Shown here piece by piece: positions 22,517 through 54,814 of a stretch of DNA of 64,000 bases. Within the stretch, counting starts at the first letter, position 1. Every line of letters begins with the position of its first letter. Source of the DNA: an uncultured Pelagibacteraceae bacterium (GTDB lineage: Bacteria; Pseudomonadota; Alphaproteobacteria; Pelagibacterales; AG-422-B15); the NCBI GenBank assembly GCA_902523455.1, contig CABYZG010000003.1:1625-65624 (forward strand), given 5' to 3'. The notes under the pieces were generated by a model. That model was not told the DNA's origin. It was given only the letters and a program-made list of their open reading frames with translations, and did not search any database. The translations under genes and the position numbers were made by a program.

Positions 22517-22555
22517 TTTGATTTAATTTTTTTGTATTACTTTTTATTCATACTA

Positions 22556-38928: not shown

Positions 38929-39689
38929 TAACCAAACCTCCCTGTTATATAATCTTGCGTTCTCTGATCTGATGGATTTGAAAAGATTGTTTCAGTCTTA
39001 TCAACTTCAACTAATTTACCTAAATGAAAAAAACCTGTCCTTGATGAAACTCTAGCGGCTTGTTGCATCGAGTGTGTAACAATAATTATTGTATATTCTG
39101 TTTTAAGATCTCCCATTAATTCTTCAATTCTAGCCGTAGCAATTGGGTCTAAAGCTGAACAAGGCTCATCCATTAGAATAATATCTGGATTTACGGATAT
39201 AGCTCTTGCAATACACAATCTTTGTTGCTGTCCACCCGAGAGGCCTGTTCCCGCATCGTATAATCTATCTTTAACCTCATCAAAGAGAGCCGCTTTTTTT
39301 AGACTGGTAACAACAATTTCTTCTAAATCAGATTTATGTTCTGCTATTCCATGTATTCTTGGACCATAAGCTACATTTTCAAAAATAGATTTTGGAAAGG
39401 GGTTCGGCTTTTGAAAAACCATGCCCACCCGTTCTCTTAGTTGTTCAACTTGCATGTCTGGTGCATAAATATCGTTGCCATCGATTTCTATTTTTCCTTG
39501 TACTTTGCATATATCAATAACATCGTTCATTCTATTTAAGCATCTAATAAAGGTTGATTTACCACAACCTGATGGACCTATTAAAGCAGTGACTTGTTTT
39601 TCTTCCATGTACATGGAAACATCGAAGAGTGCCTGTTTCTCTCCATAATAAACATTCAAGTTATCTGCTTTTATTTTTATACTTTTCAT
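38928..39689 (-). CDS. pstB: Phosphate ABC transporter ATPase
   Basis: [39 protein letters not shown]. Confidence 0.97.
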
Positions 39690-39697
39690 ATTCTATT

Positions 39698-40981
39698 TTA
39701 CCATTTTGTTTCAAATTTTCTTCTAATTAATACTGCAGCTAAATTCATTAAAATTAAAAATCCAAGTAACATCATAATTGTAGCTGAAGTTTTTTCAACA
39801 TAACCTCTTTCTGCGCTTTCTGACCATAAATAAACCTGAACTGGCAAAGAGGCAGAAGCATCCAGCGGTGTTTGTGGAACATCTACAACAAATGCCACCA
39901 TACCAATTAATAATAATGGCGCAGTTTCTCCAAGTGCTTGAGCAAGGCCTATAATTGTACCTGTTAATGCACCAGGCATTGCTACAGGAACTACATGATG
40001 CATTACTGCTTGCATTTTGGTTGCTCCGACTGCTAATGCTCCTTCTCTTATTGATGGTGGCACCGCCCTTAATGAGGCTCTAGTTGCAATAATTATTGTT
40101 GGTAGGGTCATTAAAGATAAGACTATGCCTCCAACCAGCGGTGTTGACCTTGGCAATCCAAATGTATTTAAAATAATACCAAGCCCCAATAAGCCAAATA
40201 CAATAGAAGGTACCGCTGCTAAATTATTAATATTAATTTCAATAAAATCGGTAACTCTATTTTTTGGTGCAAATTCCTCAAGATAAATAGCTGCAAAAAT
40301 TCCAATAGGAAAAGACAAAATCAAAACTACCAAAATTGTGAATAAAGAACCTACTATTGAACCTCCTACTCCTGCCAGTTCAGGTTCTCGGCTGTCACCC
40401 CTCATTAAAAATGGTAGATTGAATTCATAGCTGACAAGTCCCCTATCTACAAGGTCATCAAAAAATAAAAGTTGAATATCTTTAATTCTTCTTTTGTCTT
40501 CATCTAAGTCCCTTGGGTAGTTTCCTTTATTAACCTGATCTACATCGTCGGAGGCAGTTAAATATATTGTTTCTGTTTCATTTATATTTGACTTATTCGA
40601 TTTTAAAAATTCTCTTATTTCTTGCTCAAATTCAATACTGAATAATCGTATCAACATTTTCTTATCTTTTTTCTCTTCAATATCTGGGAAAAGTCCATAA
40701 ATAGCCTTTTTGGAAAAAGAATACATTGACAGGTTGTTAATATCCTCTGAACTCATTTCAGAAAATTGTGTCGTGTCTTCAATAAGATTTAAAAAAGGTA
40801 CATCTACCTGGATAACAGTTCTATAAAATGCTGAATAGCCAGATGAAAATATATTTAGAAATAAAATAAGCACCCATGCAAGCGCAAAGCTCATTGCACC
40901 AATACAATAAATCCTAAATCTTTTCTCTGAATTTAGCCTTTTATTTAAACTATTTATTCTTTGTTCTATTCTATCAGTCAT
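39698..40981 (-). CDS. pstA: Phosphate ABC transporter permease
   Basis: NLAAVPSIVFG, AQALGETAPLL. Confidence 0.95.
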   Translation of the reverse strand: MTDRIEQRINSLNKRLNSEKRFRIYCIGAMSFALAWVLILFLNIFSSGYSAFYRTVIQVDVPFLNLIEDTTQFSEMSSEDINNLSMYSFSKKAIYGLFPDIEEKKDKKMLIRLFSIEFEQEIREFLKSNKSNINETETIYLTASDDVDQVNKGNYPRDLDEDKRRIKDIQLLFFDDLVDRGLVSYEFNLPFLMRGDSREPELAGVGGSIVGSLFTILVVLILSFPIGIFAAIYLEEFAPKNRVTDFIEININNLAAVPSIVFGLLGLGIILNTFGLPRSTPLVGGIVLSLMTLPTIIIATRASLRAVPPSIREGALAVGATKMQAVMHHVVPVAMPGALTGTIIGLAQALGETAPLLLIGMVAFVVDVPQTPLDASASLPVQVYLWSESAERGYVEKTSATIMMLLGFLILMNLAAVLIRRKFETKW

Positions 40982-42365
40982 ATCTCTCCGTATATTTTTT
41001 TACGACCTGTAAAGCTATAAAATTTAGAGCCAATGTAACAACGAACAAGGTTAAACCCAAAGCAAAAGCTGACTGTGTTTTTGGGCTATCAAATTCTTGA
41101 TCACCGATTAAAATAACAACAATCTGAGTAGTAATTGTAGTTGCCGCATCAAGCGGATTAGCTGTTAATTTTGCATTTAATCCTGCAGCCATAACAACAA
41201 TCATTGTCTCCCCAATCGCTCTTGAGACAGCTAATAAAAAAGAACCTACAATACCTGGCAACGCAGCTGGCAATAATACTTTAACAATTGTTTCCCTTTT
41301 GGTTGCTCCCATGGCATAAGAGCCTTCTCTTAAACTTTGAGGTACAGATTTTATTACATCATCAGAAAGTGATGAAATAAATGGTATTATCATTATTCCC
41401 ATAACAAATCCCGCAGCTAGAGCGCTTTCAGAAGAAACAGTTAGTCCAGCACCCTGACCGATATCTCTCACTAAAGGTGCAACAGTTAACGCTGCAAAAA
41501 ATCCGTATACAACCGTTGGGATACCAGCAAGAATTTCAATAATTGGCTTCGCCCAATCTCTGACTTTTGGAGAAGCGTATTCAGACATATAAATGGCTGT
41601 GAGTAAACCAACTGGGACTGAGACACACATTGCAATTAATGCAATAAGAAATGTTCCAGCAAATAATGGAACAGCGCCAAATGCATTGGCCAAGTCTCTT
41701 GTATCAAGATCTCCAGCTTCTCTTACAAAAACTCTTTGAGGACTCCAATTTAATCCAAATAAAAAATCGGTTATTGGAACTTGAGAAAAAAAACGCAACG
41801 TTTCATATAATAAAGAAAAAATTATTCCAACAGTGGTCATTATAGCGACAAGTGAGCATGTAAAATACAAGACTAGTAAAAATTTCTCGACAATCTTTCT
41901 AGAATTAAGTTTGTTATTAATATTGAATAATGAGTAAAGAACCAGTAAACCTGACAACCCAAGAACTGTAACATAAGTTAAGTTTTCACTCGTCTTATTA
42001 ATATAATTTAATTTATTTACGGCGCCATCTATAAGAATAGTATTTTCATCAAAAAGTTTTATGCCCATTGCAGTGTTTTCGATTTGGGTAAATAATAAAC
42101 TTAGTTCTGTTTCTGTATAACTGCCAAGTGCTATGAAATCACTTAATACATATTGCTCAATAAAAAATGATTTAAACGAGGTAATCATCAACAGTATCAA
42201 CAGCGCCGGCACAACAGCCCATAGAGCTACGTAGTACCCATAATAATGACTAAGTGATTTAAGATTTTTTTGATTTGAAGTCCTAAGATTTTTTGCTCTT
42301 AAATTTCCTAGAAAATAGCTGGTGATACCAATTAGAATAATTAAAGAAATTAATATAAATCCCAT
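40974..42365 (-). CDS. pstC: Phosphate ABC transporter permease
   Basis: EILAGIPTVVYG, SRAIGETMIV. Confidence 0.95.
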   Translation of the reverse strand: MGFILISLIILIGITSYFLGNLRAKNLRTSNQKNLKSLSHYYGYYVALWAVVPALLILLMITSFKSFFIEQYVLSDFIALGSYTETELSLLFTQIENTAMGIKLFDENTILIDGAVNKLNYINKTSENLTYVTVLGLSGLLVLYSLFNINNKLNSRKIVEKFLLVLYFTCSLVAIMTTVGIIFSLLYETLRFFSQVPITDFLFGLNWSPQRVFVREAGDLDTRDLANAFGAVPLFAGTFLIALIAMCVSVPVGLLTAIYMSEYASPKVRDWAKPIIEILAGIPTVVYGFFAALTVAPLVRDIGQGAGLTVSSESALAAGFVMGIMIIPFISSLSDDVIKSVPQSLREGSYAMGATKRETIVKVLLPAALPGIVGSFLLAVSRAIGETMIVVMAAGLNAKLTANPLDAATTITTQIVVILIGDQEFDSPKTQSAFALGLTLFVVTLALNFIALQVVKKYTERYD

Positions 42366-42436: not shown

Positions 42437-43510
42437 TTAGTCTAGATCGAGTGTTTCTAAGTTAGCAACTCTTGATCTTATATCAGATGCATCACCATCA
42501 GATAATGCAACTAAACCGATATCAGTTAGATATCCATCTTCGCCCATTGCATCAGGGCTTGTGAAAGCTTCAAGAAACTCTTCAATTCCTGGCACAACAC
42601 CTACGTGAGCTTTTTTCACGTAAAACTGTAATGGTCGTGCAATTGGGTAAGAATAATCCTGGATACCGGCAAGCGTTGGCTGAATTCCAGTGATCGAAGC
42701 AGATTTAATTTTATCTTCGTTAGCTAAAAGATAGCTGTAACCAAAGTAACCAAATCTTTCTGGATCCTCTGATAATTTTTGAACTATTAAAGTATCGTTT
42801 TCACCAGCTTCAATAACTCTTCCATCTTCTCGCACTACTGCACATTTTTTCTTTGCCTTTTCACCGGCATTTTCCCAAAGTGTGTATGCGCCTGCTGCTT
42901 TGCAACCTTTTTTCATAATAAGTGAATTCCAAGCATCTCTTGTACCAGATGTCGGCGGTGCAACTAGGATTTCAATTTTATGATCAGGTAATGAAGCATC
43001 AATGTCAGACCATTTTTCATATGGGTTATCAATTAAATTTCCAGCAATGACTTTACCCTCGCCATCTTTTGCAACATTAGCGGGTACTTTTTCTGCAATT
43101 GCTAAAAATAAATGCTCTTGCGTAAAGTCTGCATCGGCAGCATCTAAGCTATGAGCAAGCGTCAAGCCGTCATTACCAATTGTAATTTCAATTATATCAG
43201 TAACGCCATTTTTAGCGCATAATGCCTTTTCTTTACTTTTAATTTTACGAGACGCATTGGTAATATCGGGGTGATCGGTACCAACTCCAGCACAGAATAA
43301 TTTCATTCCACCGCCCGTACCAGTACTCTCAATCACTGGTGTATTAAATCCAGTCTTACCAAATCTCTCAGCAACTACGGTTGCATAAGGGTATACAGTC
43401 GACGAACCAACGATTTTTATAGTATCTCTAGCTTGAGAACTGAATGTAAAAATTGATGAAGCGAAAACTGCAATAATCATTATTTTGATTAATCTCATTA
43501 TTTTCTCCAT
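42437..43510 (-). CDS. pstS: Phosphate ABC transporter substrate-binding protein
   Basis: GSSTVYP, STGTGGG, ITNASR, PPTSGTRD, YPIARPL. Confidence 0.95.
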   Translation of the reverse strand: MEKIMRLIKIMIIAVFASSIFTFSSQARDTIKIVGSSTVYPYATVVAERFGKTGFNTPVIESTGTGGGMKLFCAGVGTDHPDITNASRKIKSKEKALCAKNGVTDIIEITIGNDGLTLAHSLDAADADFTQEHLFLAIAEKVPANVAKDGEGKVIAGNLIDNPYEKWSDIDASLPDHKIEILVAPPTSGTRDAWNSLIMKKGCKAAGAYTLWENAGEKAKKKCAVVREDGRVIEAGENDTLIVQKLSEDPERFGYFGYSYLLANEDKIKSASITGIQPTLAGIQDYSYPIARPLQFYVKKAHVGVVPGIEEFLEAFTSPDAMGEDGYLTDIGLVALSDGDASDIRSRVANLETLDLD

Positions 43511-43546
43511 TAAGGTTTAGAATCATCAATAAATTATTTTGACTTG

Positions 43547-43586
43547 GTTACATGTTTATAACAGTTTTATTACAGTTTTATGAATG
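43547..43586 (-). promoter_or_regulatory. Four-unit Pho box upstream of pstS
   Basis: Minus strand CATTCAT-AAAA-CTGTAAT-AAAA-CTGTTAT-AAAC-ATGTAAC, then 10 nt and TAATTT (-10). Confidence 0.85.
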
Positions 43587-43591
43587 TCAGT

Positions 43592-44314
43592 TTATTGTTG
43601 ATAGTTTAAATAACTGTTTTTATTAAGATATTTAAAGGGAAGATAAATTAATGTGAATATAATAACTGTTAACACAGCCAAATAAGGAATGTGCATTGGA
43701 GGAGATGGAAATATATCTAAAAGTGTGTTCGCGGCAGGCGTTATCATTAAATACCAATAATTTACACCTTTAAAGAATTGAGAAATATAAATATTTAGTC
43801 CATAAATTATAGGTAATAAACAAACGGCAAACAAAAGAACTCGTAAAACTGACCACCAGGTTAATTGAACCTTCGTACATACACAGGCATATATTACACC
43901 AAGCAGTAATAAACCATGACCGAAATAATAAGTAATATACTCTGCATCAGGAAATGAGAAATCCAAATCTGGTGTAATGATTGCAAGGAAATTTCCACTT
44001 AATCCAAAAAAATAACCCACTTCGAAAAAAAATTTAATCTTTGTATACACATATAATCCTATTGATATTGCAGCTATATGGCAAATGTGCAATGGCAATA
44101 CTTCGTAAATAGAATGATCATAAAATATCACTCGATAAAATGGCTTTATTATCTCATGAGAAATTAATATAAAACCAATTAACAAAAAAATTGATCTAGT
44201 TACATTTTTATTATTTATAAATCGAACAAAGAAAGGAAATAAAATTGAAATAGTCACAATTGTGAAAATTGTTGCCAAATGATGATAACCAAACAAAACA
44301 AATTGAGTCGCCAT
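43592..44314 (-). CDS. YwaF/TIGR02206 family membrane protein
   Basis: LPLHICH, AIITPDL, YYFGHG, NYWYL, P...TLLD. Confidence 0.85.
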   Translation of the reverse strand: MATQFVLFGYHHLATIFTIVTISILFPFFVRFINNKNVTRSIFLLIGFILISHEIIKPFYRVIFYDHSIYEVLPLHICHIAAISIGLYVYTKIKFFFEVGYFFGLSGNFLAIITPDLDFSFPDAEYITYYFGHGLLLLGVIYACVCTKVQLTWWSVLRVLLFAVCLLPIIYGLNIYISQFFKGVNYWYLMITPAANTLLDIFPSPPMHIPYLAVLTVIIFTLIYLPFKYLNKNSYLNYQQ

Positions 44315-44354: not shown

Positions 44355-45449
44355 TTATGAAATGGGTGCAATAGGCAATTCTACTGAAAATGTACTGCCT
44401 TGATTTATTTCACTTTTTATATCTAAATGTCCTCTGTGCTTATTTAAAATATGTTTAACTATGGTTAACCCTAAACCCGTTCCACCGATTTCTTTTGATC
44501 TTGCTGCATCTACACGGTAAAAACGTTCAGTTAATCTTGCTAGATGTTTAGGATGAATGCCTTCGCTTTCATCTTTAACGCTGATTTTTGATACAAGTTG
44601 TGGAAACAGTTTTTTATTATCACTATAATCAGTTTGCTTTTTGATTTTTTCTGCCAATATATCTATTGAGCTGTTTAGTTTTCCATATTTAATCGAATTA
44701 TCTATAATATTTGTAAAGACCTGCACCAACTCATCTTCATTTCCCAATACAAATAAACCCTCACTAAGTTGATGGTTGACTCTTATTTTAATATTCTTTG
44801 TCAATGCGTATTCTTTAAGACTTTCAGCCACATTATCTATTGTTTTCAATAAATTAACTTTTTTGGTTGGATGAATATGCTCATCAGACTCTATTTTAGA
44901 TACGACAATTAAATCATCTATCAGTCTTTTCATGCGAATTGTTTCTTTATCCATAATACCAAGAAACTTAGACATAGATTTTTGATCATCTTTTGCTGGA
45001 CCTCTTATAGTCTCCAAAAAACCCATGATTGTAGCAAGAGGTGTTTTTAGCTCATGACTTACGTTTGCAATGAAAGAAGAGCGTACTCTTTCAATATTTT
45101 TTAAAGGAGTTATATTTTTCATGAGAATAACATAATTGTCTCTTGTGTTAGTTAATTGGAGATGATTTTTCTCATAACTAATCTCCACATTGTAAAAATT
45201 TGTTGATCTAGGTGATAAACTTCCGTACTCACTATTATATTCAATTATTTCTGTTTCTTTATTTTTATATACATTTTCTAATGCCTCTAAAACTATTGGG
45301 CTTCTAATTAAGTTTGTTATATTTTGACCAGTATAATTATTTTCAAATAAATCTATTGAATGGGAATTTTGAAAAACAATTTTTTGATCGGAATCAAGAA
45401 CGATTATTGCATCTTCTAGCTTATTAAGAATAAAACTGATATTTTCCAT
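44355..45449 (-). CDS. phoR: Phosphate regulon sensor kinase lacking TM anchor
   Basis: PAS-like N-terminus, ANVSHELKTPL, NIIDNSIKYG, ERFYRVDAARS..GGTGLGL. Confidence 0.9.
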   Translation of the reverse strand: MENISFILNKLEDAIIVLDSDQKIVFQNSHSIDLFENNYTGQNITNLIRSPIVLEALENVYKNKETEIIEYNSEYGSLSPRSTNFYNVEISYEKNHLQLTNTRDNYVILMKNITPLKNIERVRSSFIANVSHELKTPLATIMGFLETIRGPAKDDQKSMSKFLGIMDKETIRMKRLIDDLIVVSKIESDEHIHPTKKVNLLKTIDNVAESLKEYALTKNIKIRVNHQLSEGLFVLGNEDELVQVFTNIIDNSIKYGKLNSSIDILAEKIKKQTDYSDNKKLFPQLVSKISVKDESEGIHPKHLARLTERFYRVDAARSKEIGGTGLGLTIVKHILNKHRGHLDIKSEINQGSTFSVELPIAPIS

Positions 45450-45452
45450 TGA

Positions 45453-46946
45453 TTAAACAAATATAATTTTTTGTGATAATTTTTTGTGCTTTGAAAGCAT
45501 TAAAATAAATTTATTAAATCTACTGTTTAAAAGTTCTGAATAGTTTTTTGGGATAGAAAATATCAAATTTGAATCTTTTACATAAATACTGATATTGCTG
45601 TAATTAAAATTAGATAATTTTCCAATTTCATATACAATTCTTAAGAATAATCCAAGCTCAATACTGCTTAATAATTTATTTTTATTTATAATTTTTCTAT
45701 AATCTTTTATCTCATTTAGATCTATTCCATTGTGAAAAACATAAATAACAGTAGCGAGTGTAACTCTGTCAGAATGGCTAAACTTTAATATTTCTGATTT
45801 TAATATTTGTTTAAATACAAACAATCCCCTCTCGTCACGAGCTATACTGTCTCCCGTTGATAAATAACTTATAGAGGACACTCTTATTCTTTTATTTAAA
45901 TAGGATTTTCTTTTAAAAAAATTATTTGTGAATAATTTAATATTCTCATAATTTACGGTGCTAGGATTTAATTCGTTAGAAATTGCAGCAACTTTTAATG
46001 ATTGATATTCAAGCGGATCGCTATTTGAGCTTAAGTTTATTTTATGAGAAATATAGCCTTCTCTGATAGCTGTGTATGAAATAACTACTTGCCTAGCAGA
46101 GGCCTTATTTATTATTTCCAACGCGACCTTGGCTGCGTATCGTATAAATGGTGTTTTATCTTTTGTAATTAATGAATATTGTAGCAAGTCCTTTTTTTTA
46201 AAATTTGAAACTTCTTCAAGCATCGATACAAAGTTATCAAAATCAGGTTTGAAATGATGAATGACTTTGAGAGGATAGCTGTACTTATCAAAATATAATT
46301 TAACTAAAGCTCTCCACGTACCGCCCGTAAGGATTACCCTTTTAAACTTATTTTCATTAAGCCATTCAGTATTTTGTAGAGAGTTTTTGAATTTTTCTAT
46401 TATTTTTTTATTTTTAGTTTTTGCTCTGTGAACACCTAGTGGCAAGGACAATGTATTCATTATTTCTTTCTTTTTAACTTCTGCGAGTTCTAAGCTGCCA
46501 CCGCCGAGATCGGCAACGAGACCACTTGATTTTTTTAGACCAACAATACATCCCATGGCAGAAAACTTTGCTTCTTCATTACCATTTAATACATGTATTT
46601 TCTTTTTAAAAATATTTTCTACATCAGCAATAAATGCCTCTCTATTTTTAGCAACACGGACAGCTTCTGTTGCAAATATTTCATAATTTTTAATATTTGA
46701 TGAGTCTATCAATTCCTTTATATAATAGAACGCATTCATTGCTTTTTTTATGGAGTCTTTATTAAGCTTATTGTTTTTAATTAGATCTTTACCTAGCCCA
46801 CATGAAATTTTTTTGTTAAAAATAGCTATCTGATTAAACCTAAAGTTTTCAAAAATTTGAAAACGAACTGTGTCAGAGCCAATATCAATTATTGCAATGC
46901 GTTCGTCTTTAAAAAATAATTTTTTTTTGGGAATTAAATTATTCAT
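45453..46946 (-). CDS. ppx: Exopolyphosphatase Ppx/GppA family
   Basis: IDIGSDTVR, FATEAVR, EEAKF, DLGGGSLE, GGTWR. Confidence 0.9.
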   Translation of the reverse strand: MNNLIPKKKLFFKDERIAIIDIGSDTVRFQIFENFRFNQIAIFNKKISCGLGKDLIKNNKLNKDSIKKAMNAFYYIKELIDSSNIKNYEIFATEAVRVAKNREAFIADVENIFKKKIHVLNGNEEAKFSAMGCIVGLKKSSGLVADLGGGSLELAEVKKKEIMNTLSLPLGVHRAKTKNKKIIEKFKNSLQNTEWLNENKFKRVILTGGTWRALVKLYFDKYSYPLKVIHHFKPDFDNFVSMLEEVSNFKKKDLLQYSLITKDKTPFIRYAAKVALEIINKASARQVVISYTAIREGYISHKINLSSNSDPLEYQSLKVAAISNELNPSTVNYENIKLFTNNFFKRKSYLNKRIRVSSISYLSTGDSIARDERGLFVFKQILKSEILKFSHSDRVTLATVIYVFHNGIDLNEIKDYRKIINKNKLLSSIELGLFLRIVYEIGKLSNFNYSNISIYVKDSNLIFSIPKNYSELLNSRFNKFILMLSKHKKLSQKIIFV

Positions 46947-49068
46947 AATGCATCAGAGAGAGTAGTTTCTTAGGCTTTCTATTTCCTTTTAATTTTCCTC
47001 TACCTGACAAACTTGGATTTGACATGAAGTATTTATGTGCATTAAACGTCTTACCTTTTTGTTTAACTCTTTTGTATGTGCCATCATCGTTCATTATCCA
47101 CGTTTGCTCATTATCTAGGAAATTGGCAACCATTATTTGATTCAATATTTGCTCATGGACAGTGGAGTTCTTTATGGGGGTTAATATTTCAACTCTTCTA
47201 TCCAGATTTCTAGGCATAAGATCAGCTGATCCAATTAAAACGGTGTTGTTTTTTGATGGTATATTAGATTCGTTTGCAAAACAGAAGATTCTAGCATGCT
47301 CTAAATACCGGCCAATGATACTTTTAACAACAATATTTTCAGAAAGTTTTTTAACTCCTGGTCTTAAGCAGCAAATTCCTCTAATGAACAATTCAATTTT
47401 TACTCCCGCTGCAGAAGCCTCATAAAGCTTGGAGATCATTTGAGGGTCAACCAAAGAGTTCATTTTAAGCCAGATACCAGATGGTTTACTTTTCTTTGCA
47501 TTTTTAATTTCATTATCAATCATTGCATTAATTTGATTTCGCATTGCGGGTGGAGAGAGCACTATATCATTTAATTTCATTGGAGAAGCATACCCAGTCA
47601 TGTAATTAAAGATTCTTTCAATATCTTTGCAGATTTTTTCATCTGCTGTAAATAATGACAGGTCTTCATAAGTTTTAGCGTTTTTTGGATGATAGTTTCC
47701 TGTGCCAACATGTACATAGCTTTTTAATTTGCCTGCTTCTCTTCTGATAATTAGGCTTGCCTTTGCGTGCGTCTTCAATTGAGCAAAACCGTATACAATT
47801 TGAACTCCTGATTTCTCCATTTGATTGGCAAGAGCTAAATTAGATTCCTCATCAAATCTTGCTTTTATCTCAACAACAGCTGTAACACTCTTACCGTTAT
47901 CTGCTGCTTTTGTAAGGGCTTTTATAATTGGACTATCAGCAGTAGTTCTGTAAATCGTTTGTTTAATTGCTACTACTTTTGGATCTATAGCGGCCTGATT
48001 TAAATAATCAACAACGACATCAAAAGTTTCATATGGATGATGAACAACAAAATCTTTTGATCTGATGGCTGCAAAACAATTATTATCAAATTGCTTTAAC
48101 CTTTCAACAGGTCTTGAAATAAATTTTTTAAATTTTAATTTTGGTCTATTTAAATTATGAATCTGCGATAAATCTTGTAAACCAACATGCTTTGATAGAG
48201 CAATGACTTGCGCATCTTTAAGATTCAAATTTTTTTTTAAAAAGTTTTTCTTTTTAGATGATATATTTTTTAAAATTTCTAGCCTTACTATTTCCCCTCT
48301 TTTTCTTTTTGTTAATGCCTTTTCAAAGTATTTAATAACATCTTCATCGTCTTCATATTCGTAATCGATATCACTGTCTCTTATAACCCTGAATATAGCA
48401 CTATCCAACAATTTAGAATTTGGGAATAGATCTTTAAAAAAATATCTAATAATATCTTCAACAAATAAATAGTATTCTTTTTTACCCTCTTGAATAAACA
48501 CAAGTCTGTTTAATGCTCGCGGAACAATGATTACCGAATTAAACGGTTTATTTGAACCTCCTGCAACTAAACTCAATGAAATACACAATCCTTCATTTGG
48601 AATAAATGGAAATGGATGCACTGGGTCAATTGAAATTGGCGTTAATATAGGTAGTATTTCTTTATTAAAAAGTTTTTTTAGATTTTTTCTCAATCTTATA
48701 TTTAATTTATTAGGCGTAATATGAATTATTTTTTCTGTATTTAATTCTCTAACAAGTTTTCTTAAAGTAGCGTCCTGATCCTTAAATATTTTTGCAGATG
48801 CATTTTGTGCTGCTTTTAATTGTTGATGTCCAGTCATGCCGTCATGGCTTATTTTGTTTGGATTATTTTCTATTTCATCAAAAAGGCTTGGTATTCTAAC
48901 CATATAAAATTCGTCCAGATTACTTGCAGAAATTGAGAGAAAATTAACTCTTTCGATTATCGGCACTTTAATATTATTAGCCTCATCTAAAACTCTTTGG
49001 TTAAAAAGAAGCCATGATAGTTCTCGGTTTAAGAACTTATTGTCTGAATATGTTTTTTTTCTTATCAT
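46939..49068 (-). CDS. ppk1: Polyphosphate kinase 1
   Basis: NRELSWL, HHPYETF, KARFDEE, KTHAK, GTGNY, YLEHAR, SADLMPRN. Confidence 0.96.
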   Translation of the reverse strand: MIRKKTYSDNKFLNRELSWLLFNQRVLDEANNIKVPIIERVNFLSISASNLDEFYMVRIPSLFDEIENNPNKISHDGMTGHQQLKAAQNASAKIFKDQDATLRKLVRELNTEKIIHITPNKLNIRLRKNLKKLFNKEILPILTPISIDPVHPFPFIPNEGLCISLSLVAGGSNKPFNSVIIVPRALNRLVFIQEGKKEYYLFVEDIIRYFFKDLFPNSKLLDSAIFRVIRDSDIDYEYEDDEDVIKYFEKALTKRKRGEIVRLEILKNISSKKKNFLKKNLNLKDAQVIALSKHVGLQDLSQIHNLNRPKLKFKKFISRPVERLKQFDNNCFAAIRSKDFVVHHPYETFDVVVDYLNQAAIDPKVVAIKQTIYRTTADSPIIKALTKAADNGKSVTAVVEIKARFDEESNLALANQMEKSGVQIVYGFAQLKTHAKASLIIRREAGKLKSYVHVGTGNYHPKNAKTYEDLSLFTADEKICKDIERIFNYMTGYASPMKLNDIVLSPPAMRNQINAMIDNEIKNAKKSKPSGIWLKMNSLVDPQMISKLYEASAAGVKIELFIRGICCLRPGVKKLSENIVVKSIIGRYLEHARIFCFANESNIPSKNNTVLIGSADLMPRNLDRRVEILTPIKNSTVHEQILNQIMVANFLDNEQTWIMNDDGTYKRVKQKGKTFNAHKYFMSNPSLSGRGKLKGNRKPKKLLSLMHYE

Positions 49069-49595: not shown

Positions 49596-50093
49596 TTATA
49601 TTGATGCAGCGTAATCAATTATACTATTTTGAATTTTTATTAATACATCGTTATCGGAGGATGATTTTATCCAATTATTATTTTTTAATTCTTGAATGAA
49701 TATTCTTATGTCTAAGGAATCTGCTGTTAAATCATCACCAACAATATAGACATCAATTTTAATACGGCTCTTTATATCTTTTTCAATTGAAAACCAATCA
49801 GTCAATATAAAATAGTCTTCTTTGTTGGCTTCCAACACCGGCATGAATGACAACTTTGCAAGTGAAGCCTTCCATAACTTTTCTTTATTATTGATTAAAT
49901 TGTCATTGTTGATTGAGAGTGATTTACCTATTTCATCTTTTATCCATTTATTAAGGCTTATCCCCCTTGAGTTAGGATTTGCTGCGTCTTCTCCTCTTAT
50001 ATGGCCAGAGTCTGCTCTTTCTATAGTTAATGGAAGTTGAGCGCAGTTAGTGAGAGTGACTAAAATAAAAATGAAGAAAAAATACGCTTTCAT
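49596..50093 (-). CDS. DUF3576-like lipoprotein
   Basis: Lipobox LTNC, LWKASLAKLSFMP, ILTDW, KIDVYI. Confidence 0.75.
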   Translation of the reverse strand: MKAYFFFIFILVTLTNCAQLPLTIERADSGHIRGEDAANPNSRGISLNKWIKDEIGKSLSINNDNLINNKEKLWKASLAKLSFMPVLEANKEDYFILTDWFSIEKDIKSRIKIDVYIVGDDLTADSLDIRIFIQELKNNNWIKSSSDNDVLIKIQNSIIDYAASI

Positions 50094-50133
50094 TACTTAT
50101 TAATATTACAAGATTGTTACACATTTATTAAAA

Positions 50134-50164
50134 TAACCAGAGTGCAATATTTGCACTCTGGTTA
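50134..50164 (-). terminator. Porin gene terminator
   Basis: Perfect 14-bp hairpin TAACCAGAGTGCAA-TAT-TTGCACTCTGGTTA followed by TTTT on the minus strand. Confidence 0.75.
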
Positions 50165-50201: not shown

Positions 50202-51134
50202 TTAAAAGCCAATTTTGTAGCCAATGAAGAAGTTTTCAACATCCGCATTTGAGCCCACAGAAGCAACATGATATTCAATTGAAGCTTTTACACCTCCACC
50301 GAATGACTTTTGCAAGGAAGCAATTGAGCCATCGTCATCAGCCGTTGAGCCAGTATTATCGACATCAAAATACTCGTATTGAAATGTTGCATCCAATCCA
50401 GGAATCTTTGGCGTTTTAACTCCTATAACTGTATAGCTGTCACCACTATCCGAGTCGTATAGACCATAACCGATTGTGTAACCTGCAAGCTTAGGTGCTT
50501 TAATACCAATCATGTAGTTTTCATCTCCAGTTCTAGAGTCCGTATTGCCTTCATCGACAATGCCTCCTTTAACTGAAAAACCAGCGATCTTTCCTGATAT
50601 TGAATAAGCCATTATGTCGTCATAACCAGCCGTTGTTCCAAATCCGATACCCGCTTTAACAGTAAATCCATTTATTTTAGGGGATGTATAGACAATTTGG
50701 TTGCTATCATCAAAACCTGCTGCACCAGTAACGCCGTCACCATCTTCATAATCAGCGCTTAAGCCTTGAGGTAATTTTCTTGAGCTTGCAAATGATGATT
50801 TTACAGGGTGGCTATCCATACTATCAACGGGGCCGCCTGAGAGACCATTACCAAAAGAAACTGTGCCCATGTCAGAAATGAATGAAATATCAAAATCACC
50901 ACCTCCACCAGATTCGTAAGCCATGACACCTTCTATACCCATACCATTGTCTAATGTATCTGTGTAAGTCACATATGCTGATTCTGTAACTGATATTCTT
51001 TCCTGAGACGCGTAAGAGTCTCCAGATCCCCACAAGCCATTAAAAGTACCGCCAACAGTTACATCTGCTTGCGCACTTGAAAGAGCCATTATACTAGCAA
51101 GTGCAGTCGTTGCACTTAAGATTTTATTATTCAT
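50202..51134 (-). CDS. Outer-membrane porin
   Basis: Signal peptide (SSAQA), Gly/Asp/Ser-rich amphipathic strands, C-terminal YKIGF. Confidence 0.85.
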   Translation of the reverse strand: MNNKILSATTALASIMALSSAQADVTVGGTFNGLWGSGDSYASQERISVTESAYVTYTDTLDNGMGIEGVMAYESGGGGDFDISFISDMGTVSFGNGLSGGPVDSMDSHPVKSSFASSRKLPQGLSADYEDGDGVTGAAGFDDSNQIVYTSPKINGFTVKAGIGFGTTAGYDDIMAYSISGKIAGFSVKGGIVDEGNTDSRTGDENYMIGIKAPKLAGYTIGYGLYDSDSGDSYTVIGVKTPKIPGLDATFQYEYFDVDNTGSTADDDGSIASLQKSFGGGVKASIEYHVASVGSNADVENFFIGYKIGF

Positions 51135-51414: not shown

Positions 51415-52422
51415 TTATTTTGCAACGCGTGATGCAGTTTGATGTGACAAAAACAGCTTAGAAACCTCATGCCAATCAAATTTTTTACTATAATTTATAC
51501 AATCTGTACGACTCACTTTTCTCGCCTTATCAATTGAATTAATTAAATTATGATCAAGACAATTATGTTTAAAATTATCAAAAACATCAATTGGACCTGG
51601 AACAGGATATGCGGCCACGGGAAGTCCACTGGCGAGAGCCTCGATCATGACCATTCCAAACGTATCTGTTTTACTTGGAAATACAAAAATATCTGAAGAT
51701 GCATAGTACTGGGCCAGTTCACTTCCTTTCTTCACTCCTACAAAAACTGCATCAGTATATTTTTTTACTAGTTTTTTCTTAGAGGGTCCATCACCTACAA
51801 GTAATTTTGTACCTTTTAAATTTAATTTAAGAAAATCCTCTAGCGATTTTTCCTTAGATATTCTTCCTACATATAAATAAATTGGTTTTTCTAATTTGAG
51901 ATCAATCTTTTTTTTCGGATGAAAGGCTTCAATATCAACACCCCTAGACCATTTAACTGTTCTTTTAATTCCATGTGAATTAAGTTCATCTATAATTGAA
52001 TTAGAAGATACCATTACTGCGCTAGAATTTTTGTGAAACCATTTCAAAATTTTATATGTAAAAGATACAGGTATCTTAGCCATCGTGTTTATATATTCAG
52101 GAAATTTTGTACAATACGAGGTTGTAAACGCATAATTATTCTTTGAACAATAATTCCTAACCGCTAAGCCAATAGGTCCCTCTGTAGCAACGTGTATAAA
52201 GTCAGGCTTAAACTTCTCAATGATCAAGCCAATTTTGAACCAATGATTAATCGCAAGTTTTATTTCAGGATAAATAATCAGTGGAATTGTAATAAATTGA
52301 TCTGGAGTTATGTACCTAACCTCATGTCCTTGACTTGTAAGTTTATTACCAAGTGTTTGATAAGTTCTAACAACACCATTTATTTGAGGGAGCCATGCGT
52401 CTGATGCGATGAGTATTTTCAA
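51415..52422 (-). CDS. agt: GT4 glycosyltransferase (glycolipid synthase for P-free lipids)
   Basis: DAWLPQINGVVRT, YVGRISKEK, FPSKTDTFG, EALASGLPVAA; adjacent to plcP. Confidence 0.8.
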   Translation of the reverse strand: MKILIASDAWLPQINGVVRTYQTLGNKLTSQGHEVRYITPDQFITIPLIIYPEIKLAINHWFKIGLIIEKFKPDFIHVATEGPIGLAVRNYCSKNNYAFTTSYCTKFPEYINTMAKIPVSFTYKILKWFHKNSSAVMVSSNSIIDELNSHGIKRTVKWSRGVDIEAFHPKKKIDLKLEKPIYLYVGRISKEKSLEDFLKLNLKGTKLLVGDGPSKKKLVKKYTDAVFVGVKKGSELAQYYASSDIFVFPSKTDTFGMVMIEALASGLPVAAYPVPGPIDVFDNFKHNCLDHNLINSIDKARKVSRTDCINYSKKFDWHEVSKLFLSHQTASRVAK

Positions 52423-53241
52423 TTAACTTAATACCTTTACGGAGTCCTTATGTTTGTTCAAAATTTCATACTTTTCAACGATATCTTTCCAAAAAAGAAT
52501 TTCCATTGATCCATCAAAATTTTCTATCATAAAGGAGCAACTTTCTACCCAGTCCCCATCATTATAGTAATGAACTCCATTTATTATTCGATGTGAAGCA
52601 TGATGAATATGTCCGCAAATAACTCCTTTTAGATTTTTCTTTTTTGCATAACCTGCAACTATTTCTTCGTACTTATTAATGTAAGAAACAGCATTTTTTA
52701 CTTTTAATTTCAGATACTTTGAAAGCGACCAATATTTCAAACCCAATAATAATCTTAATTGATTAAATCTTCTATTTAGCCATAAAGCTAAATCGTATGC
52801 GCTAGCGCCAAGATGGGCTAACCAGGGTGCGATATTGATAATTGAGTCAAATTTGTCTCCATGCAGTATAAGATATTCAGATCCATCTACTGTCTTATGT
52901 TTGATTTCATTAACTACTCTAATTTCGCCTAGTGTTATTGGCACAAATTTTCTAACAAGCTCATCATGATTTCCTGATACATAAAACACTTTAGTTCCAT
53001 GTCGTGCTTTTCTTAGAATTTTTTGTATTACATCACTGTGACTTTGTGGCCAGTACCATCTATTTTTAAGTCGCCACCCATCTATAATATCTCCAACTAA
53101 GTATAGGTAATCTGATCTGGTATTTTTTAAAAAATCAAGCAACTGTTCAGCTTGACAGCCTTTTGACCCTAAATGAATATCTGAAATAAATATGGAACGA
53201 TATTTTAAGAGAGGAATAACATTATTTTTTTCGTTGACCAT
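52423..53241 (-). CDS. plcP: Metallophosphoesterase, phospholipase C of lipid remodelling
   Basis: SDIHLG, GDIIDGW, GNHD, HGDKFD, CGHIH, NDGDWVES; coupled to a GT4 gene with an upstream Pho box. Confidence 0.85.
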   Translation of the reverse strand: MVNEKNNVIPLLKYRSIFISDIHLGSKGCQAEQLLDFLKNTRSDYLYLVGDIIDGWRLKNRWYWPQSHSDVIQKILRKARHGTKVFYVSGNHDELVRKFVPITLGEIRVVNEIKHKTVDGSEYLILHGDKFDSIINIAPWLAHLGASAYDLALWLNRRFNQLRLLLGLKYWSLSKYLKLKVKNAVSYINKYEEIVAGYAKKKNLKGVICGHIHHASHRIINGVHYYNDGDWVESCSFMIENFDGSMEILFWKDIVEKYEILNKHKDSVKVLS

Positions 53242-53271
53242 AAATTTGGTAAAAAAGAATCAATAATCATT

Positions 53272-53305
53272 ACATTATCAATAATTTATGAAAGATTTGT
53301 TAAGC
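53272..53305 (-). promoter_or_regulatory. PhoB-type promoter of plcP
   Basis: Minus strand GCTTAAC-AAAT-CTTTCAT, then exactly 10 nt and TAATGT. Confidence 0.6.
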
Positions 53306-53321
53306 CATACTTTCTAGAAAT

Positions 53322-53377
53322 CTGTCATAAAATTTTAATATTCTTGTAATTTTTATGACAAAATTAAAAATTATGAT
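53322..53377 (+). promoter_or_regulatory. Second, divergent PhoB-type promoter
   Basis: CTGTCAT 53322, TTTTAAT 53333, TTGTAAT 53344, ATGACAA 53355 (all 11 apart), then 10 nt and TATGAT 53372-53377. Confidence 0.55.
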
Positions 53378-53383
53378 TTAAGC

Positions 53384-53575
53384 TTTGAGTAACTAGACAG
53401 AAGACTGAACTTCCTCATTTAATCCTCCACCCTTCCAAATATAAATGGGGAAGTTCTTCTCTTATTTCCATTAAGGTAATTTGTATATTGGGATCATTAT
53501 AGGAAAAAAGAGGAAAAATCAGGATTTTATAAAAAAAAAGGCCCAAACAAAGTATTTTGAAAGGGCCTTTTTCTT
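53384..53575 (+). ncRNA. Candidate Pho-regulon sRNA (~190 nt)
   Basis: Predicted promoter, 15-bp hairpin 53407-53456 with C-rich CCUCC loop, ends at a bidirectional terminator. Confidence 0.4.
53531..53575. terminator. Bidirectional intrinsic terminator
   Basis: A9-GGCCC...GGGCC-TTTTTCTT with an internal CAAA/TTTG stem. Confidence 0.75.
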
Positions 53576-53590
53576 GATTATTCAGTCTTT

Positions 53591-54010
53591 TTACATAGTA
53601 ACGCCAATTCGCATGCCTGATCTATTGTACAAAATATTCATCAGTACAAATACGAGTATAGATGCAATCATTGGTACAGGGTTTGCACCGCCGTCAGCTC
53701 CCATATAAATTACAATTAATCTAATCGAATTTATAAATGAACCGACAAGCATCATTCTAAAAAAAACCGTCGATTGCTCAATCGGCGCAAGCAAAGTTGC
53801 AACAAATGCAATTGCAAAGATTATATATGTCCAACCCAAGTTAGAAATTAACTGCAAATGATTTGCGTCTATGTCCCCACTACTAGTACCAAGTCGCTCG
53901 ATAAATGCAGTAGCCGATTCTGCACCAGTAAACATGAAACCATAAAACAGGAATAATAATGTTAGAAAACAAATTATTACTCTACTTATCGTGTCTTCAA
54001 CTTTAATCAT
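53591..54010 (-). CDS. Hypothetical 4-TM membrane protein
   Basis: Four hydrophobic segments; GGAGGA SD upstream. Confidence 0.75.
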   Translation of the reverse strand: MIKVEDTISRVIICFLTLLFLFYGFMFTGAESATAFIERLGTSSGDIDANHLQLISNLGWTYIIFAIAFVATLLAPIEQSTVFFRMMLVGSFINSIRLIVIYMGADGGANPVPMIASILVFVLMNILYNRSGMRIGVTM

Positions 54011-54019
54011 ATATTCCTC

Positions 54020-54814
54020 CTAAAAATTAGATTGGTTTCTGAAGTAAATAGTCATTAGAACTATAAAATTCAAAATTATAAAAATTGCTAATAGAGGATT
54101 CCCGCTATCAGGATTGGTGGCAGTTCCAACCATTAATGCCGCAAGGAACATTGCAGCACCCACAGCACCCATTGAAACAAGAACGCCACTGAAACCCACT
54201 CGATACTGGTAAACCAATGAAATTAATATCGCTATATTAATCATAGTTATTCCAAGAACAGCATGCTCTGCTTGAGGACTGCTTTCAAGGTATGGTGTTT
54301 GTCTTATAAAACCACCAGGATCAATTACGTAACTGACAATATTGATTACACTTATAAGTATCGCAATGTAGCCCATAATTTGTGATGTTTTGTCTGTAAC
54401 GCCAAAAGCACTACTAGCCTTATCGTATGTAAAAGGCATTCCTGCTTTTACTCTCGATACAACAAGCAAGGCTAAAAGAATTATCCAGACTACAAGACCT
54501 GTAATGTTTTCCTCTCCAGTTTGTGCATTGGACATAATAATCCAAATTACTTGAAGCAGGACAACAGGTATTGCATAGGCAAAGAAGCCTCTATCAAGAC
54601 CTTTAAAACCCATATAAAGGATACCTACATATGCAACAAAGCTTACTGCTCCAAACCAGTTAAGAAAGAAAACTGTTGTTTGGTTATTCTCAAATGTTGG
54701 ATATCGTTCCATCATGAAATCTGTGTTGAACATCATGACGGCGCCATAAGCAAAAAATATAAGTCCTGCTAGAAACATGCAGCCTTGTATTAATTTATCG
54801 TCAGTATTAAACAT
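54020..54814 (-). CDS. Hypothetical 8-TM membrane protein (two-repeat)
   Basis: Two ~125-aa 4-TM halves, each resembling the downstream ORF. Confidence 0.75.
   Translation of the reverse strand: MFNTDDKLIQGCMFLAGLIFFAYGAVMMFNTDFMMERYPTFENNQTTVFFLNWFGAVSFVAYVGILYMGFKGLDRGFFAYAIPVVLLQVIWIIMSNAQTGEENITGLVVWIILLALLVVSRVKAGMPFTYDKASSAFGVTDKTSQIMGYIAILISVINIVSYVIDPGGFIRQTPYLESSPQAEHAVLGITMINIAILISLVYQYRVGFSGVLVSMGAVGAAMFLAALMVGTATNPDSGNPLLAIFIILNFIVLMTIYFRNQSNF

What the first reader, a model, noticed from the sequence alone, without database searches (positions are those of the whole stretch)
53322..53575. Candidate PhoB-activated sRNA with an exposed anti-Shine-Dalgarno loop, divergent from plcP
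Four 11-bp-spaced Pho half-sites, starting with a perfect CTGTCAT, sit exactly 10 nt before TATGAT but point away from plcP into a region with no credible gene. The predicted transcript (~53384-53575) has a 15-bp stem (53407-53421/53442-53456) whose 20-nt loop AUCCUCCACCCUUCCAAAUA displays CCUCC, like anti-SD alphaproteobacterial sRNAs (AbcR/cuckoo type), and it ends at a terminator. This suggests a trans-acting translational repressor of the P-starvation response. Alternative: on the minus strand the same loop is a GGAGG SD for two coupled micro-ORFs (53415..53471 MEIREELPHLYLEGWRIK; 53371..53418 MRKFSLLSSYSKLKS) leading toward plcP.
Basis: partly seen in the sequence, partly recalled or inferred. 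Interest (0 to 1): 0.7.

Follow-up and report, generated by a model that had tools for sequence, protein, structure and literature searches.

The report
Candidate phosphate-starvation small RNA in SAR11
Next to the lipid-remodelling gene plcP of an ocean SAR11 bacterium sits a second, outward-facing phosphate-starvation promoter that most likely makes a short hairpin RNA whose loop mimics the ribosome's mRNA-docking sequence. No such regulator has been described in this regulator-poor organism, and its expression is still unproven.

Summary
Four 11-nt-phased Pho half-sites (53322-53361) lie 10 nt before a -10 hexamer (53372-53377) on the + strand. This is the same layout as the pstS and phnC promoters in this window. 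A scan finds only these three sites, against 0.07 expected by chance. plcP has its own separate Pho promoter on the minus strand (53305-53272), so the cluster is a true divergent promoter.

In 47 related SAR11 loci the -10 is TAnnnT in 46, and TATAAT in 33. The next 6-10 nt are hypervariable. The transcript then starts with an invariant GAGUAACU, followed by a 15-bp hairpin whose loop always carries CCUCCAC.

The minus-strand micro-ORFs are not conserved as peptides. Rfam has no match. The RNA resembles a single module of alphaproteobacterial "cuckoo" anti-SD sRNAs but is not a member.

Weak points: no expression data, only two or three independent lineages, non-significant covariation, no clean terminator and no identified target. 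The 53540-53572 terminator belongs to the convergent gene. The conserved RNA ends by about 53470-53491.

Verdict: a plausible new PhoB-driven sRNA, restricted to one SAR11 plcP clade. The promoter is well supported. The trans-repressor function is inferred.

The parts
53322..53361 (+). Four Pho-box half-sites (CTGTCAT, TTTTAAT, TTGTAAT, ATGACAA) at 11-nt phase; predicted PhoB binding region at about -62 to -23 of the + strand promoter
   Evidence: 22/28 to the consensus; one of three such sites in the window; between the two lineages all three differences fall in the 4-nt spacers, none in the 7-mers.
53372..53377 (+). -10 hexamer TATGAT, 10 nt after the last half-site
   Evidence: TAnnnT in 46 of 47 loci and TATAAT in 33. 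L060 keeps TATAAT despite an indel in the spacer.
53378..53386 (+). Hypervariable discriminator and predicted transcription start region (TSS about 53384-53387)
   Evidence: 19 alleles of 6-10 nt. This is the most variable 10-nt stretch in the 2-kb agt-plcP-sRNA block (entropy 0.69 against a median of 0.03).
53387..53394 (+). Conserved 5' octamer GAGTAACT, the predicted 5' end of the RNA
   Evidence: identical in both lineages (one GAGTACCT variant). On the minus strand it is read in different frames in the two lineages, so the conservation is at nucleotide level.
53395..53406 (+). Purine-rich single-stranded linker (AGACAGAAGACT)
   Evidence: the sequence differs between lineages (TAGAGAAAAGAG) but stays A/G-rich.
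53407..53421 (+). 5' arm of the hairpin
53422..53441 (+). 20-nt loop with CCUCCACCC (53424-53432), an anti-Shine-Dalgarno-like motif
   Evidence: CCTCC invariant in all 47 loci; CCTCCAC in 46 of 47; CCTCCACCCTTC in 44 of 47.
53442..53456 (+). 3' arm of the hairpin
   Evidence: 12 of 16 tested pairs never vary. Pair 53407/53456 is G-C, G.U or A-U (and U.U in L103-L108). Pair 53415/53448 is U.G or C-G.
53457..53491 (+). Pyrimidine-rich tail (CTTCTCTTATTTC...ATTTGTATATT); possible weak termination zone and the end of the block inherited with plcP
   Evidence: conserved in window-type loci across three versions of the neighbouring genes. It differs in the L014-type lineage.
53531..53573 (.). Bidirectional terminator of the convergent 139-aa gene; would stop any read-through + strand transcript in this genome only
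   Evidence: Absent from the other contexts.
53288..53305 (-). plcP's own Pho box, GCTTAAC-AAAT-CTTTCAT
   Evidence: Second half-site variants CTTTCAC and ACGTCAC. Positionally equivalent to TTGTAAC-AAAT-GATTAAT in the 75%-identity plcP clade.
53272..53280 (-). plcP extended -10 (TG-n-TAATGT), 10 nt after its Pho box
   Evidence: TAATGT, TAATAT or TATAGT in all relatives, and the 'n' varies. The discriminator 53264-53271 is the second internal variability hotspot.
52423..53241 (-). plcP (metallophosphoesterase, LpxH-like), first gene of plcP-agt
   Evidence: Role in lipid remodelling from PMC4796936.

Best explanation
The plcP upstream region holds two back-to-back PhoB-dependent promoters. 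One (Pho box 53305-53288, -10 53277-53272, minus strand) drives plcP-agt. The other (four half-sites 53322-53361, -10 53372-53377, + strand) fires away from plcP at about 53384-53387.

The second promoter is predicted to make a short non-coding RNA of roughly 85-105 nt, longer if it reads through to 53573. The RNA has four parts:
- a conserved 5' GAGUAACU;
- a purine-rich linker;
- one 15-bp hairpin with a fully unpaired 20-nt loop carrying CCUCCACCC;
- a U/C-rich tail.

Inferred mechanism: under phosphate starvation PhoB~P induces the RNA together with plcP. The C-rich loop pairs with Shine-Dalgarno regions of the few mRNAs in this genome that have a strong SD, and lowers their translation.

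Shown from sequence: the promoter architecture and its comparative signature, the hairpin and loop conservation, and linkage to plcP. Inferred: transcription itself, the 3' end, action in trans, anti-SD pairing and the direction of regulation.
For: 1. Same architecture as real Pho promoters in the same window. pstS is CTGTAAT-4-CTGTTAT-4-ATGTAAC-10 nt-TAATTT. phnC is similar. Only these three sites pass the scan, against 0.07 expected.
2. phoR, pstSCAB, phoU and phoB are encoded in the window.
3. plcP has a separate, conserved, correctly spaced Pho box and extended -10.
4. In 47 loci the + strand -10 is TAnnnT in 46 while its inner positions and the following 6-10 nt vary freely. The next 8 nt are invariant. 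This is the pattern expected of a promoter followed by a functional transcript. The conserved TA is not a minus-strand stop codon, because L014-type loci read TAT there.
5. The window-type and L014-type lineages differ in the linker, loop edges and tail. They keep all four half-sites, the octamer, the stem and the loop core CCTCCACCCTTC.
6. Stem wobbles favour the + strand. 53415/53448 is U.G on the + strand but C.A on the minus strand in most sequences. 53407/53456 runs G-C, G.U, A-U.
7. The loop is wholly unpaired in the + strand minimum-free-energy fold of every variant.
8. The element is single-copy and always beside plcP, in two genomic contexts (139-aa membrane gene or znuA).
9. SD-led genes are rare here. 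Only 2 of 68 ORFs have GGAGG, so an anti-SD RNA would be selective.
Against: - There are no transcript data of any kind.
- Overall divergence is tiny: plcP CDS differs at 0-6% of positions. Recombination is mosaic. Much of the identity is therefore shared ancestry. The covariance model counts only 1.53 effective sequences.
- Covariation is not significant: one pair changed on both sides, and 37 of 500 shuffles reach the observed score. The same pair is U.U in L103-L108.
- The hairpin is near-palindromic and folds about equally well on both strands.
- No canonical intrinsic terminator follows the hairpin: the loop is 20 nt, the U-tract is interrupted, and the scan finds none.
- The minus strand carries a perfect GGAGG-5 nt-ATG in a genome where such sites are rare.
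- No convincing target was found in the window.
- plcP relatives at 86%, 75% and 56% identity lack the element, so it is not needed for plcP control.
- One locus (L112) has TATAAC at the -10.
Confidence: 0.5

Rival explanations
1. The hairpin is mainly a transcriptional insulator or (bidirectional) terminator that shields the tightly PhoB-controlled plcP promoter from upstream read-through. The four outward-facing half-sites act as extra PhoB binding sites that help load PhoB at the weak plcP box. Any + strand transcript would be a short by-product with no function.
For: In the L014-type context znuA ends about 55 nt before the hairpin on the plcP strand. There the hairpin is followed by UUCUCUUUUCUCU. 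Both flanks of the hairpin are pyrimidine-rich downstream on their own strand. plcP's own box is weak, 10/14 to the consensus by my count of the sequence. The hairpin folds equally well on both strands.
Against: A 20-nt loop with a 12-nt conserved core is atypical for a terminator, and there is no T-run. In the window-type context the upstream gene already has a strong terminator at 53540-53572. This reading does not explain why a TAnnnT hexamer (mostly TATAAT) is kept exactly 10 nt after the last half-site while its neighbours mutate freely. It also does not explain the invariant GAGTAACT.
Confidence: 0.2
2. The functional strand is the minus strand. The loop is a strong Shine-Dalgarno site for a translated micro-ORF (53418-53371, MRKFSLLSSYSKLKS). 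The ORF would act as a leader or small protein upstream of plcP, with the start codon gated by the stem.
For: GGAGG, 5 nt, then ATG is a perfect ribosome-binding site, in a genome where only 2 of 68 ORFs have GGAGG. An ATG-initiated ORF is present in all 47 loci.
Against: There are 26 different peptides in 47 loci, with lengths of 7, 14-17 and 30 aa. The two lineages share only MxKFS(L/F)L, which is encoded by the stem arm and the pyrimidine tract. The conserved AGTTACTC is read in different frames. No conserved minus-strand promoter lies between the upstream terminator and the hairpin (my reading of the alignment), and the one promoter-scan hit there, lies downstream of the micro-ORF. The ORF's C-terminus coincides with the hypervariable stretch. 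Most sequences have a C.A mismatch in the minus-strand stem.
Confidence: 0.1
3. The element is a young, neutral relic, for example an inverted partial duplication of a Pho promoter and a gene start created when the plcP-agt block moved. Its apparent conservation reflects recent spread by recombination rather than selection.
For: Very low divergence and mosaic recombination. Restricted to one clade. The minus strand looks like a gene 5' end and shares ACCTTAATGGA and TGGAG..ATGAG with the pstS start region.
Against: Between the two lineages the differences avoid the half-sites, the -10 T/A/T positions, the octamer, the stem and the loop core, and pile up in spacers, linker and tail. L060 has a heavily diverged plcP promoter segment but a nearly unchanged RNA.
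Confidence: 0.1

Closest known systems
Cuckoo RNA family of Alphaproteobacteria (RSs0680a-d/CcsR, Smr14C/NfeR1, alpha-r14), as defined in PMC4615179
   Same: Alphaproteobacterial host. The hairpin module fits the family's size limits (50-nt hairpin, 20-nt loop; limits are 24-50 and 9-27). The loop has a C-rich anti-SD-like motif, CCUCCACCC, which matches the family motif CCUCCUCCC at 8 of 9 positions. It is stress-induced from its own promoter (inferred here).
   Different: One hairpin instead of 2-4. The loop motif differs at one position. No Rfam hit even at E <= 10. The family was not reported in Pelagibacterales (one search finds only Pelagibacterium). Control here is by PhoB rather than RpoHI/II or NtrC. 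The genome is AT-rich with few SD-led genes.
AbcR1/AbcR2 sRNAs of Rhizobiales (PMC8844928)
   Same: Trans-acting alphaproteobacterial sRNAs that use exposed C-rich anti-SD motifs to repress translation, mostly of transporter mRNAs. The mechanism description is my own knowledge. The paper was only listed by a search and I did not read it.
   Different: No sequence or structure match in Rfam. Single motif, different regulator, different genomic context.
Phosphate-starvation-induced sRNAs: Bacillus PhoS (PhoP-stimulated, 3'UTR of phoPR; PMC11522486) and Haloferax sRNA132 (PMC6560208)
   Same: A small RNA placed under the phosphate two-component or Pho response and encoded next to Pho-regulon genes.
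   Different: No sequence relation. Those RNAs have experimental support. PhoS derives from a 3'UTR, whereas this candidate has its own divergent Pho-box promoter.
Canonical PhoB class II promoters (E. coli pstS type; PMC3465305, PMC10294691)
   Same: 7-nt direct repeats with 4-nt spacers, in head-to-tail orientation on the non-template strand. The repeats end 10 nt before the -10 and there is no -35. The E. coli rule is my own knowledge. The in-window pstS and phnC promoters show it directly.
   Different: The half-site consensus here is (C/T/A)TGTAA(T/C) rather than CTGTCAT. The promoter drives a non-coding RNA and sits back-to-back with a second Pho promoter only 16 bp away.

Membership tests
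PhoB-dependent (Pho-box) promoter | Two or more 7-nt direct repeats resembling CTGTCAT, with 11-nt periodicity, reading in the direction of transcription | tested here: met
   Four repeats, 22/28 to CTGT[A/C]A[T/C]. The minus-strand reading scores 16/28 (my count of the sequence). Only pstS and phnC score as well in the window.
PhoB-dependent (Pho-box) promoter | The last repeat ends about 10 nt upstream of a -10 hexamer, in place of a -35 | tested here: met
   Exactly 10 nt to TATGAT. 10 nt in the relatives (11 in L060), with TAnnnT in 46 of 47.
PhoB-dependent (Pho-box) promoter | Cognate PhoR/PhoB present in the genome | tested here: met
   PhoB (TIGR02154, 301 bits) passes its curated cut-off. 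PhoR is the best hit (TIGR02966, 288 bits) but falls below its cut-off of 334.
PhoB-dependent (Pho-box) promoter | PhoB binding and induction under phosphate limitation | not testable with these tools
   Needs EMSA, ChIP or expression data.
Cuckoo RNA family | 2 to 4 adjacent hairpins | tested here: not met
   Only one conserved hairpin. The family definition is from PMC4615179.
Cuckoo RNA family | Each hairpin loop carries CCUCCUCCC | tested here: not met
   The loop has CCUCCACCC in 44 of 47 loci. The other three carry CCUCCCCCC, CCUCCACUA or CCUCCACCCUCC. This is an 8/9 match, not the motif.
Cuckoo RNA family | Hairpin of 24-50 nt with a loop of 9-27 nt | tested here: met
   50-nt hairpin, 20-nt loop.
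Cuckoo / AbcR / any Rfam family | Match to the family covariance model | tested here: not met
   cmscan of 52900-54100 at E <= 10 returns only sub-threshold hits, mostly over the 53540-53572 terminator.
Rho-independent terminator | G+C-rich stem, short loop (3-8 nt), then a run of T | tested here: not met
   20-nt loop; tail CTTCTCTTATTTC without a T-run; the scan finds none.
Translated small ORF / leader peptide (minus strand) | SD and start codon at proper spacing | tested here: met
   GGAGG, 5 nt, ATG at 53418.
Translated small ORF / leader peptide (minus strand) | Reading frame, length and peptide conserved among relatives | tested here: not met
   26 peptides in 47 loci, 7 to 30 aa, with a frame shift between lineages.
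Trans-acting base-pairing sRNA (generic) | Own promoter, defined 3' end, conserved single-stranded seed, complementary targets | tested here: inconclusive
   Promoter and conserved unpaired loop: yes. 3' end unclear. No convincing target in 64 kb. Hfq not examined.

The most novel reading that the evidence does not exclude
This would be the first phosphate-starvation riboregulator of SAR11. It is a single-hairpin, cuckoo-like anti-SD sRNA with its own PhoB promoter that is inherited together with the plcP-agt lipid-remodelling cassette. It would selectively silence the handful of SD-dependent mRNAs in a genome where about 97% of genes lack GGAGG. In addition, both divergent Pho promoters carry hypervariable discriminators, which would point to ongoing population-level tuning of their output.
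Probability: 0.3. Interest if true: 0.7.

Novelty: new member of a known kind. Interest (0 to 1): 0.58.

Why it matters
SAR11 is the most abundant heterotroph of the surface ocean. It is noted for having very few regulators, and almost no sRNAs are known in it. My full-text searches found no phosphate-responsive SAR11 sRNA.

Lipid remodelling by PlcP/Agt is a major way these cells lower their phosphorus quota (PMC4796936). An RNA co-induced and co-inherited with that cassette would add a post-transcriptional layer to the P-starvation response of populations in P-depleted gyres. It would also give a simple natural test of what an anti-SD sRNA does in a genome that largely dispenses with SD sequences.

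The hypervariable promoter discriminators are a separate population-genetic oddity that could be mined in existing metagenomes.

Tried and rejected
- Rfam at a permissive threshold: nothing relevant.
- Own covariance model R1 over 394 kb of SAR11 loci, including plcP relatives at 86%, 75% and 56% identity: no second copy.
- Viral contigs: none.
- Loop motif in 185k genomes: found in SAR11 only beside plcP.
- Target search in the window by RNAduplex on translation-initiation regions and by exact complementarity: no hit stands out.
- One lead dropped. The tail 53465-53477 pairs over 13 bp with the pstS SD region 43516-43504. The pairing allele is in only about 8 of 47 loci, while the pstS initiation region is invariant. 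It is probably chance.
- Two contigs seemed to show the + promoter driving a protein gene. L062 joins to the interior of a SAR11 2H-phosphoesterase gene. L120 joins to Marinimicrobia aroB/aroQ. Both are assembly chimeras and were discarded.
- + strand peptide (MGKFFSYFH) and the 75-aa ORF 53481-53708: no SD, not conserved, and the ORF crosses the terminator. Rejected.
- Red Sea mdRNA-seq paper (PMC5069720): it maps TSSs to HTCC7211 during deep mixing. It is not informative for this clade or this condition.
- Co-variation test between the sRNA tail and pstS: no retrieved contig spans both loci.

Full report
**Source and setting.** The window comes from a SAR11 genome. Its PlcP is 100% identical to that of several Pelagibacteraceae single-cell genomes. 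The finding lies at the edge of a phosphate island on the minus strand:
- phoR 44355-45449
- a TMEM164-like acyltransferase 43592-44314
- pstS 42437-43498
- pstC, pstA, pstB, phoU and phoB 37550-42365
- ppx and ppk 45453-49068
- a porin 50202-51134
- agt 51415-52422
- plcP 52423-53241

plcP-agt is the lipid-remodelling pair described in SAR11 and other marine heterotrophs. For these clusters Pho boxes were predicted only in general terms (PMC4796936).

I scored every position of the window for four 11-nt-phased 7-mers against CTGT[A/C]A[T/C].
- Only three loci reach 22/28. They are the pstS promoter (24/28, followed at 10 nt by TAATTT), a site upstream of phnCDE, and 53322-53361 on the + strand (22/28, followed at 10 nt by TATGAT).
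- First-order Markov simulations give 0.07 such sites per window.
- Read toward plcP, the same 40 bp score only 16/28 by my count of the sequence.

The cluster is therefore as good as the two classical Pho-regulon promoters in the same DNA, and it is oriented away from plcP.

**plcP has its own promoter.** Alignment of 32 unique upstream regions shows GCTTAAC-AAAT-CTTTCAT (53305-53288), then 10 nt, then TG-n-TAATGT (-10 at 53277-53272).
- The second half-site varies as CTTTCAC or ACGTCAC.
- The -10 varies as TAATAT or TATAGT, always TAnnnT.
- plcP relatives at 75% identity have the equivalent TTGTAAC-AAAT-GATTAAT-10 nt-TAAAAT. The 86% relative has TTTTAAC-AATT-CTGTAAC. Both read toward plcP and both lack any hairpin.

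The 53322-53361 cluster is thus a second, divergent promoter 16 bp from plcP's box. It is not plcP's operator read backwards.

**Comparative signature of the + strand promoter and transcript.** I collected 47 loci with the element from genomes, metagenomes and contigs encoding PlcP variants. Parsing them on the + strand gives the following.
- The four half-sites are the same in the two lineages (window-type and L014-type). All three differences between them fall in the 4-nt spacers. The first half-site alternates between CTGTCAT and CTGTAAT, the latter being the pstS half-site.
- The -10 is TAnnnT in 46 of 47 loci and TATAAT in 33. L060 keeps TATAAT despite an indel in the spacer.
- The next 6-10 nt have 19 alleles, including length changes.
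- GAGTAACT follows in all loci but one.

The conserved TA cannot be a minus-strand stop codon, because it reads TAT in L014-type loci. This sequence of features (constrained activator sites, constrained T/A/T of the -10, free discriminator, constrained RNA start) is what a working promoter followed by a functional transcript should leave. The predicted TSS is 53384-53387.

**The RNA.**
- From 53387 the window-type sequence is almost invariant to about 53478.
- The L014-type differs in the purine-rich linker, loop edges and tail. It keeps the octamer, the stem and the loop core CCTCCACCCTTC.
- CCTCC is invariant in all 47 loci and CCTCCAC in 46.
- The + strand fold leaves all 20 loop bases unpaired in every variant.
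- Stem evidence is thin. Twelve of 16 tested pairs never vary. One pair (53407/53456) goes G-C, G.U, A-U, but is U.U in L103-L108. One pair (53415/53448) is U.G in most sequences and C-G in the L014-type. Both wobbles would be C.A or A.C mismatches on the minus strand, which mildly favours the + strand. The shuffle control is not significant (37 of 500).
- Total fold energies are similar on both strands.
- No canonical terminator follows the hairpin. The tail is U/C-rich.
- The block inherited with plcP ends near 53491. The 53540-53572 terminator belongs to the convergent 139-aa gene and is replaced in other contexts.

I therefore put the conserved RNA at about 85-105 nt. A longer read-through form is possible in this genome.

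**How strong is "conservation"?** It is weaker than it looks.
- plcP coding sequences differ from the window at 0-6% of positions.
- Recombination is mosaic. L012, L013, L015 and L019 are identical to the window through the first 100 nt of plcP and upstream, then diverge.
- The covariance model counts 1.53 effective sequences.
- The useful contrasts are the L014-type lineage and L060. In L060 the plcP promoter segment is heavily diverged while the RNA is nearly unchanged.

These contrasts argue for constraint, but they amount to two or three observations.

**The minus-strand alternative.**
- GGAGG, 5 nt, ATG is a perfect ribosome-binding site, and such sites are rare here. Only phoU and the neighbouring 139-aa gene, out of 68 ORFs, have GGAGG.
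- However, the ORF encodes 26 different peptides of 7 to 30 aa in 47 loci.
- Its second codon is R, G or W.
- The two lineages read the conserved AGTTACTC in different frames.
- Its C-terminus is the hypervariable stretch.
- I found no conserved minus-strand promoter between the upstream terminators and the hairpin.

Peptide-level function is unlikely. Bare translation cannot be excluded.

**Distribution and relatives.**
- The loop motif occurs in SAR11 genomes only beside plcP.
- My model finds no other copy in 394 kb of SAR11 loci, and there are none in viral contigs.
- The element occurs in two contexts: next to a pair of membrane-protein genes, or next to znuA.
- Rfam has nothing.
- The closest known kind is the alphaproteobacterial cuckoo family: 2-4 hairpins of 24-50 nt whose 9-27-nt loops carry CCUCCUCCC (PMC4615179). 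The present RNA looks like one such module with CCUCCACCC. It fails the hairpin-number and motif criteria, so it works like, but is not a member of, that family.
- Phosphate-responsive sRNAs are known elsewhere (Bacillus PhoS, PMC11522486; Haloferax sRNA132, PMC6560208). My searches found none for SAR11.

**Targets.**
- Nothing convincing was found in the window.
- The most eye-catching match is 13 bp between the tail (53465-53477) and the pstS SD region (43516-43504). The real pstS start is the second ATG at 43498, as gene callers agree.
- That match depends on a tail allele present in only about 8 of 47 loci, while the pstS leader is invariant. I treat it as chance.

**Artefacts removed.** Two short metagenome contigs appeared to show the + promoter feeding a protein gene. 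One continues into the interior of a SAR11 2H-phosphoesterase gene. The other continues into Marinimicrobia aroB/aroQ. Both are chimeras, and both break exactly at the hypervariable site.

**Verdict.**
- The divergent PhoB-type promoter is well supported by sequence and comparison. I put about 0.75 on it being functional.
- A conserved, structured, non-coding + strand RNA is the best reading (0.5 for the full statement).
- The anti-SD trans-repressor mechanism is a reasonable inference with no direct support.

This is a new, clade-restricted member of a known kind of regulator, in an organism where such regulators are scarcely known.

Noticed in passing
window 53374-53386 and 53264-53273: The stretches just downstream of (and inside) the -10 of both divergent Pho promoters are the most variable internal spots in the 2-kb agt-plcP-sRNA block. 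Ten-column entropy is 0.69 and 0.41 against a median of 0.03. The + strand site has 19 alleles with length changes, even between genomes whose plcP coding sequence is identical. The pstS promoter discriminator is not variable in 8 contigs. Cause unknown.
   Followed up: partly
window 53272-53305 (minus strand): plcP's own Pho box (GCTTAAC-AAAT-CTTTCAT) and extended -10 (TG-n-TAATGT) at canonical 10-nt spacing. This gives a predicted 5'UTR of about 25-30 nt with no SD.
   Followed up: yes
window 53591-54814; L001 1421-2647; L003 1389-2635: The 139-aa membrane protein next to the element is only 35-39% identical between genomes whose PlcP is 99-100% identical. The synteny (264-aa gene, 139-aa gene, livH) is kept. 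Neither protein has a Pfam or NCBIfam match. This is a hypervariable gene pair abutting a recombining conserved block.
   Followed up: partly
window 52423-53241; L012, L013, L015, L019: Mosaic recombination inside plcP. These loci are identical to the window upstream and through the first about 100 nt of plcP, then differ at 4-6% of positions.
   Followed up: partly
window 53465-53477 versus 43504-43516: 13-bp complementarity (one G.U) between the RNA tail and the pstS SD region. The pairing allele occurs in only about 8 of 47 loci while the pstS leader is invariant. The minus strand of the element also resembles the pstS start region (ACCTTAATGGA; TGGAG..ATGAG), which could hint at an origin by inverted duplication.
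   Followed up: partly
window 43496-43510: The longest pstS ORF starts at 43510. The second ATG (43498) has a GGAG SD at proper spacing and is the start that gene callers use in 8 contigs (353 aa).
   Followed up: yes
window 22467-22544, 43531-43597, 50105-50144: Other Pho-box clusters: upstream of phnCDE (divergent from a phnZ-like gene), upstream of pstS, and a weaker one (20/28) upstream of the unannotated 165-aa gene 49596-50093.
   Followed up: partly
whole window: Only 2 of 68 ORFs of 120 aa or more have GGAGG, and 10 have any 4-nt SD core, within 20 nt of the start. The two with GGAGG are phoU (start 38928) and the 139-aa gene (start 54010).
   Followed up: no
L062 (OBOA01002619.1) and L120 (ERZ1742198 NODE_6343): Public metagenome contigs that are chimeras. 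They join the plcP promoter to a SAR11 2H-phosphoesterase gene interior and to Marinimicrobia aroB/aroQ respectively. The junction is exactly at the hypervariable site.
   Followed up: yes
L054 about 2160-2500 (75%-identity plcP clade): The 343-nt intergenic region upstream of plcP in this clade holds an unrelated 10-bp-stem hairpin (ATGATGTTTA...TAAACATCAT). Model R1 finds no homolog of the window RNA there.
   Followed up: no
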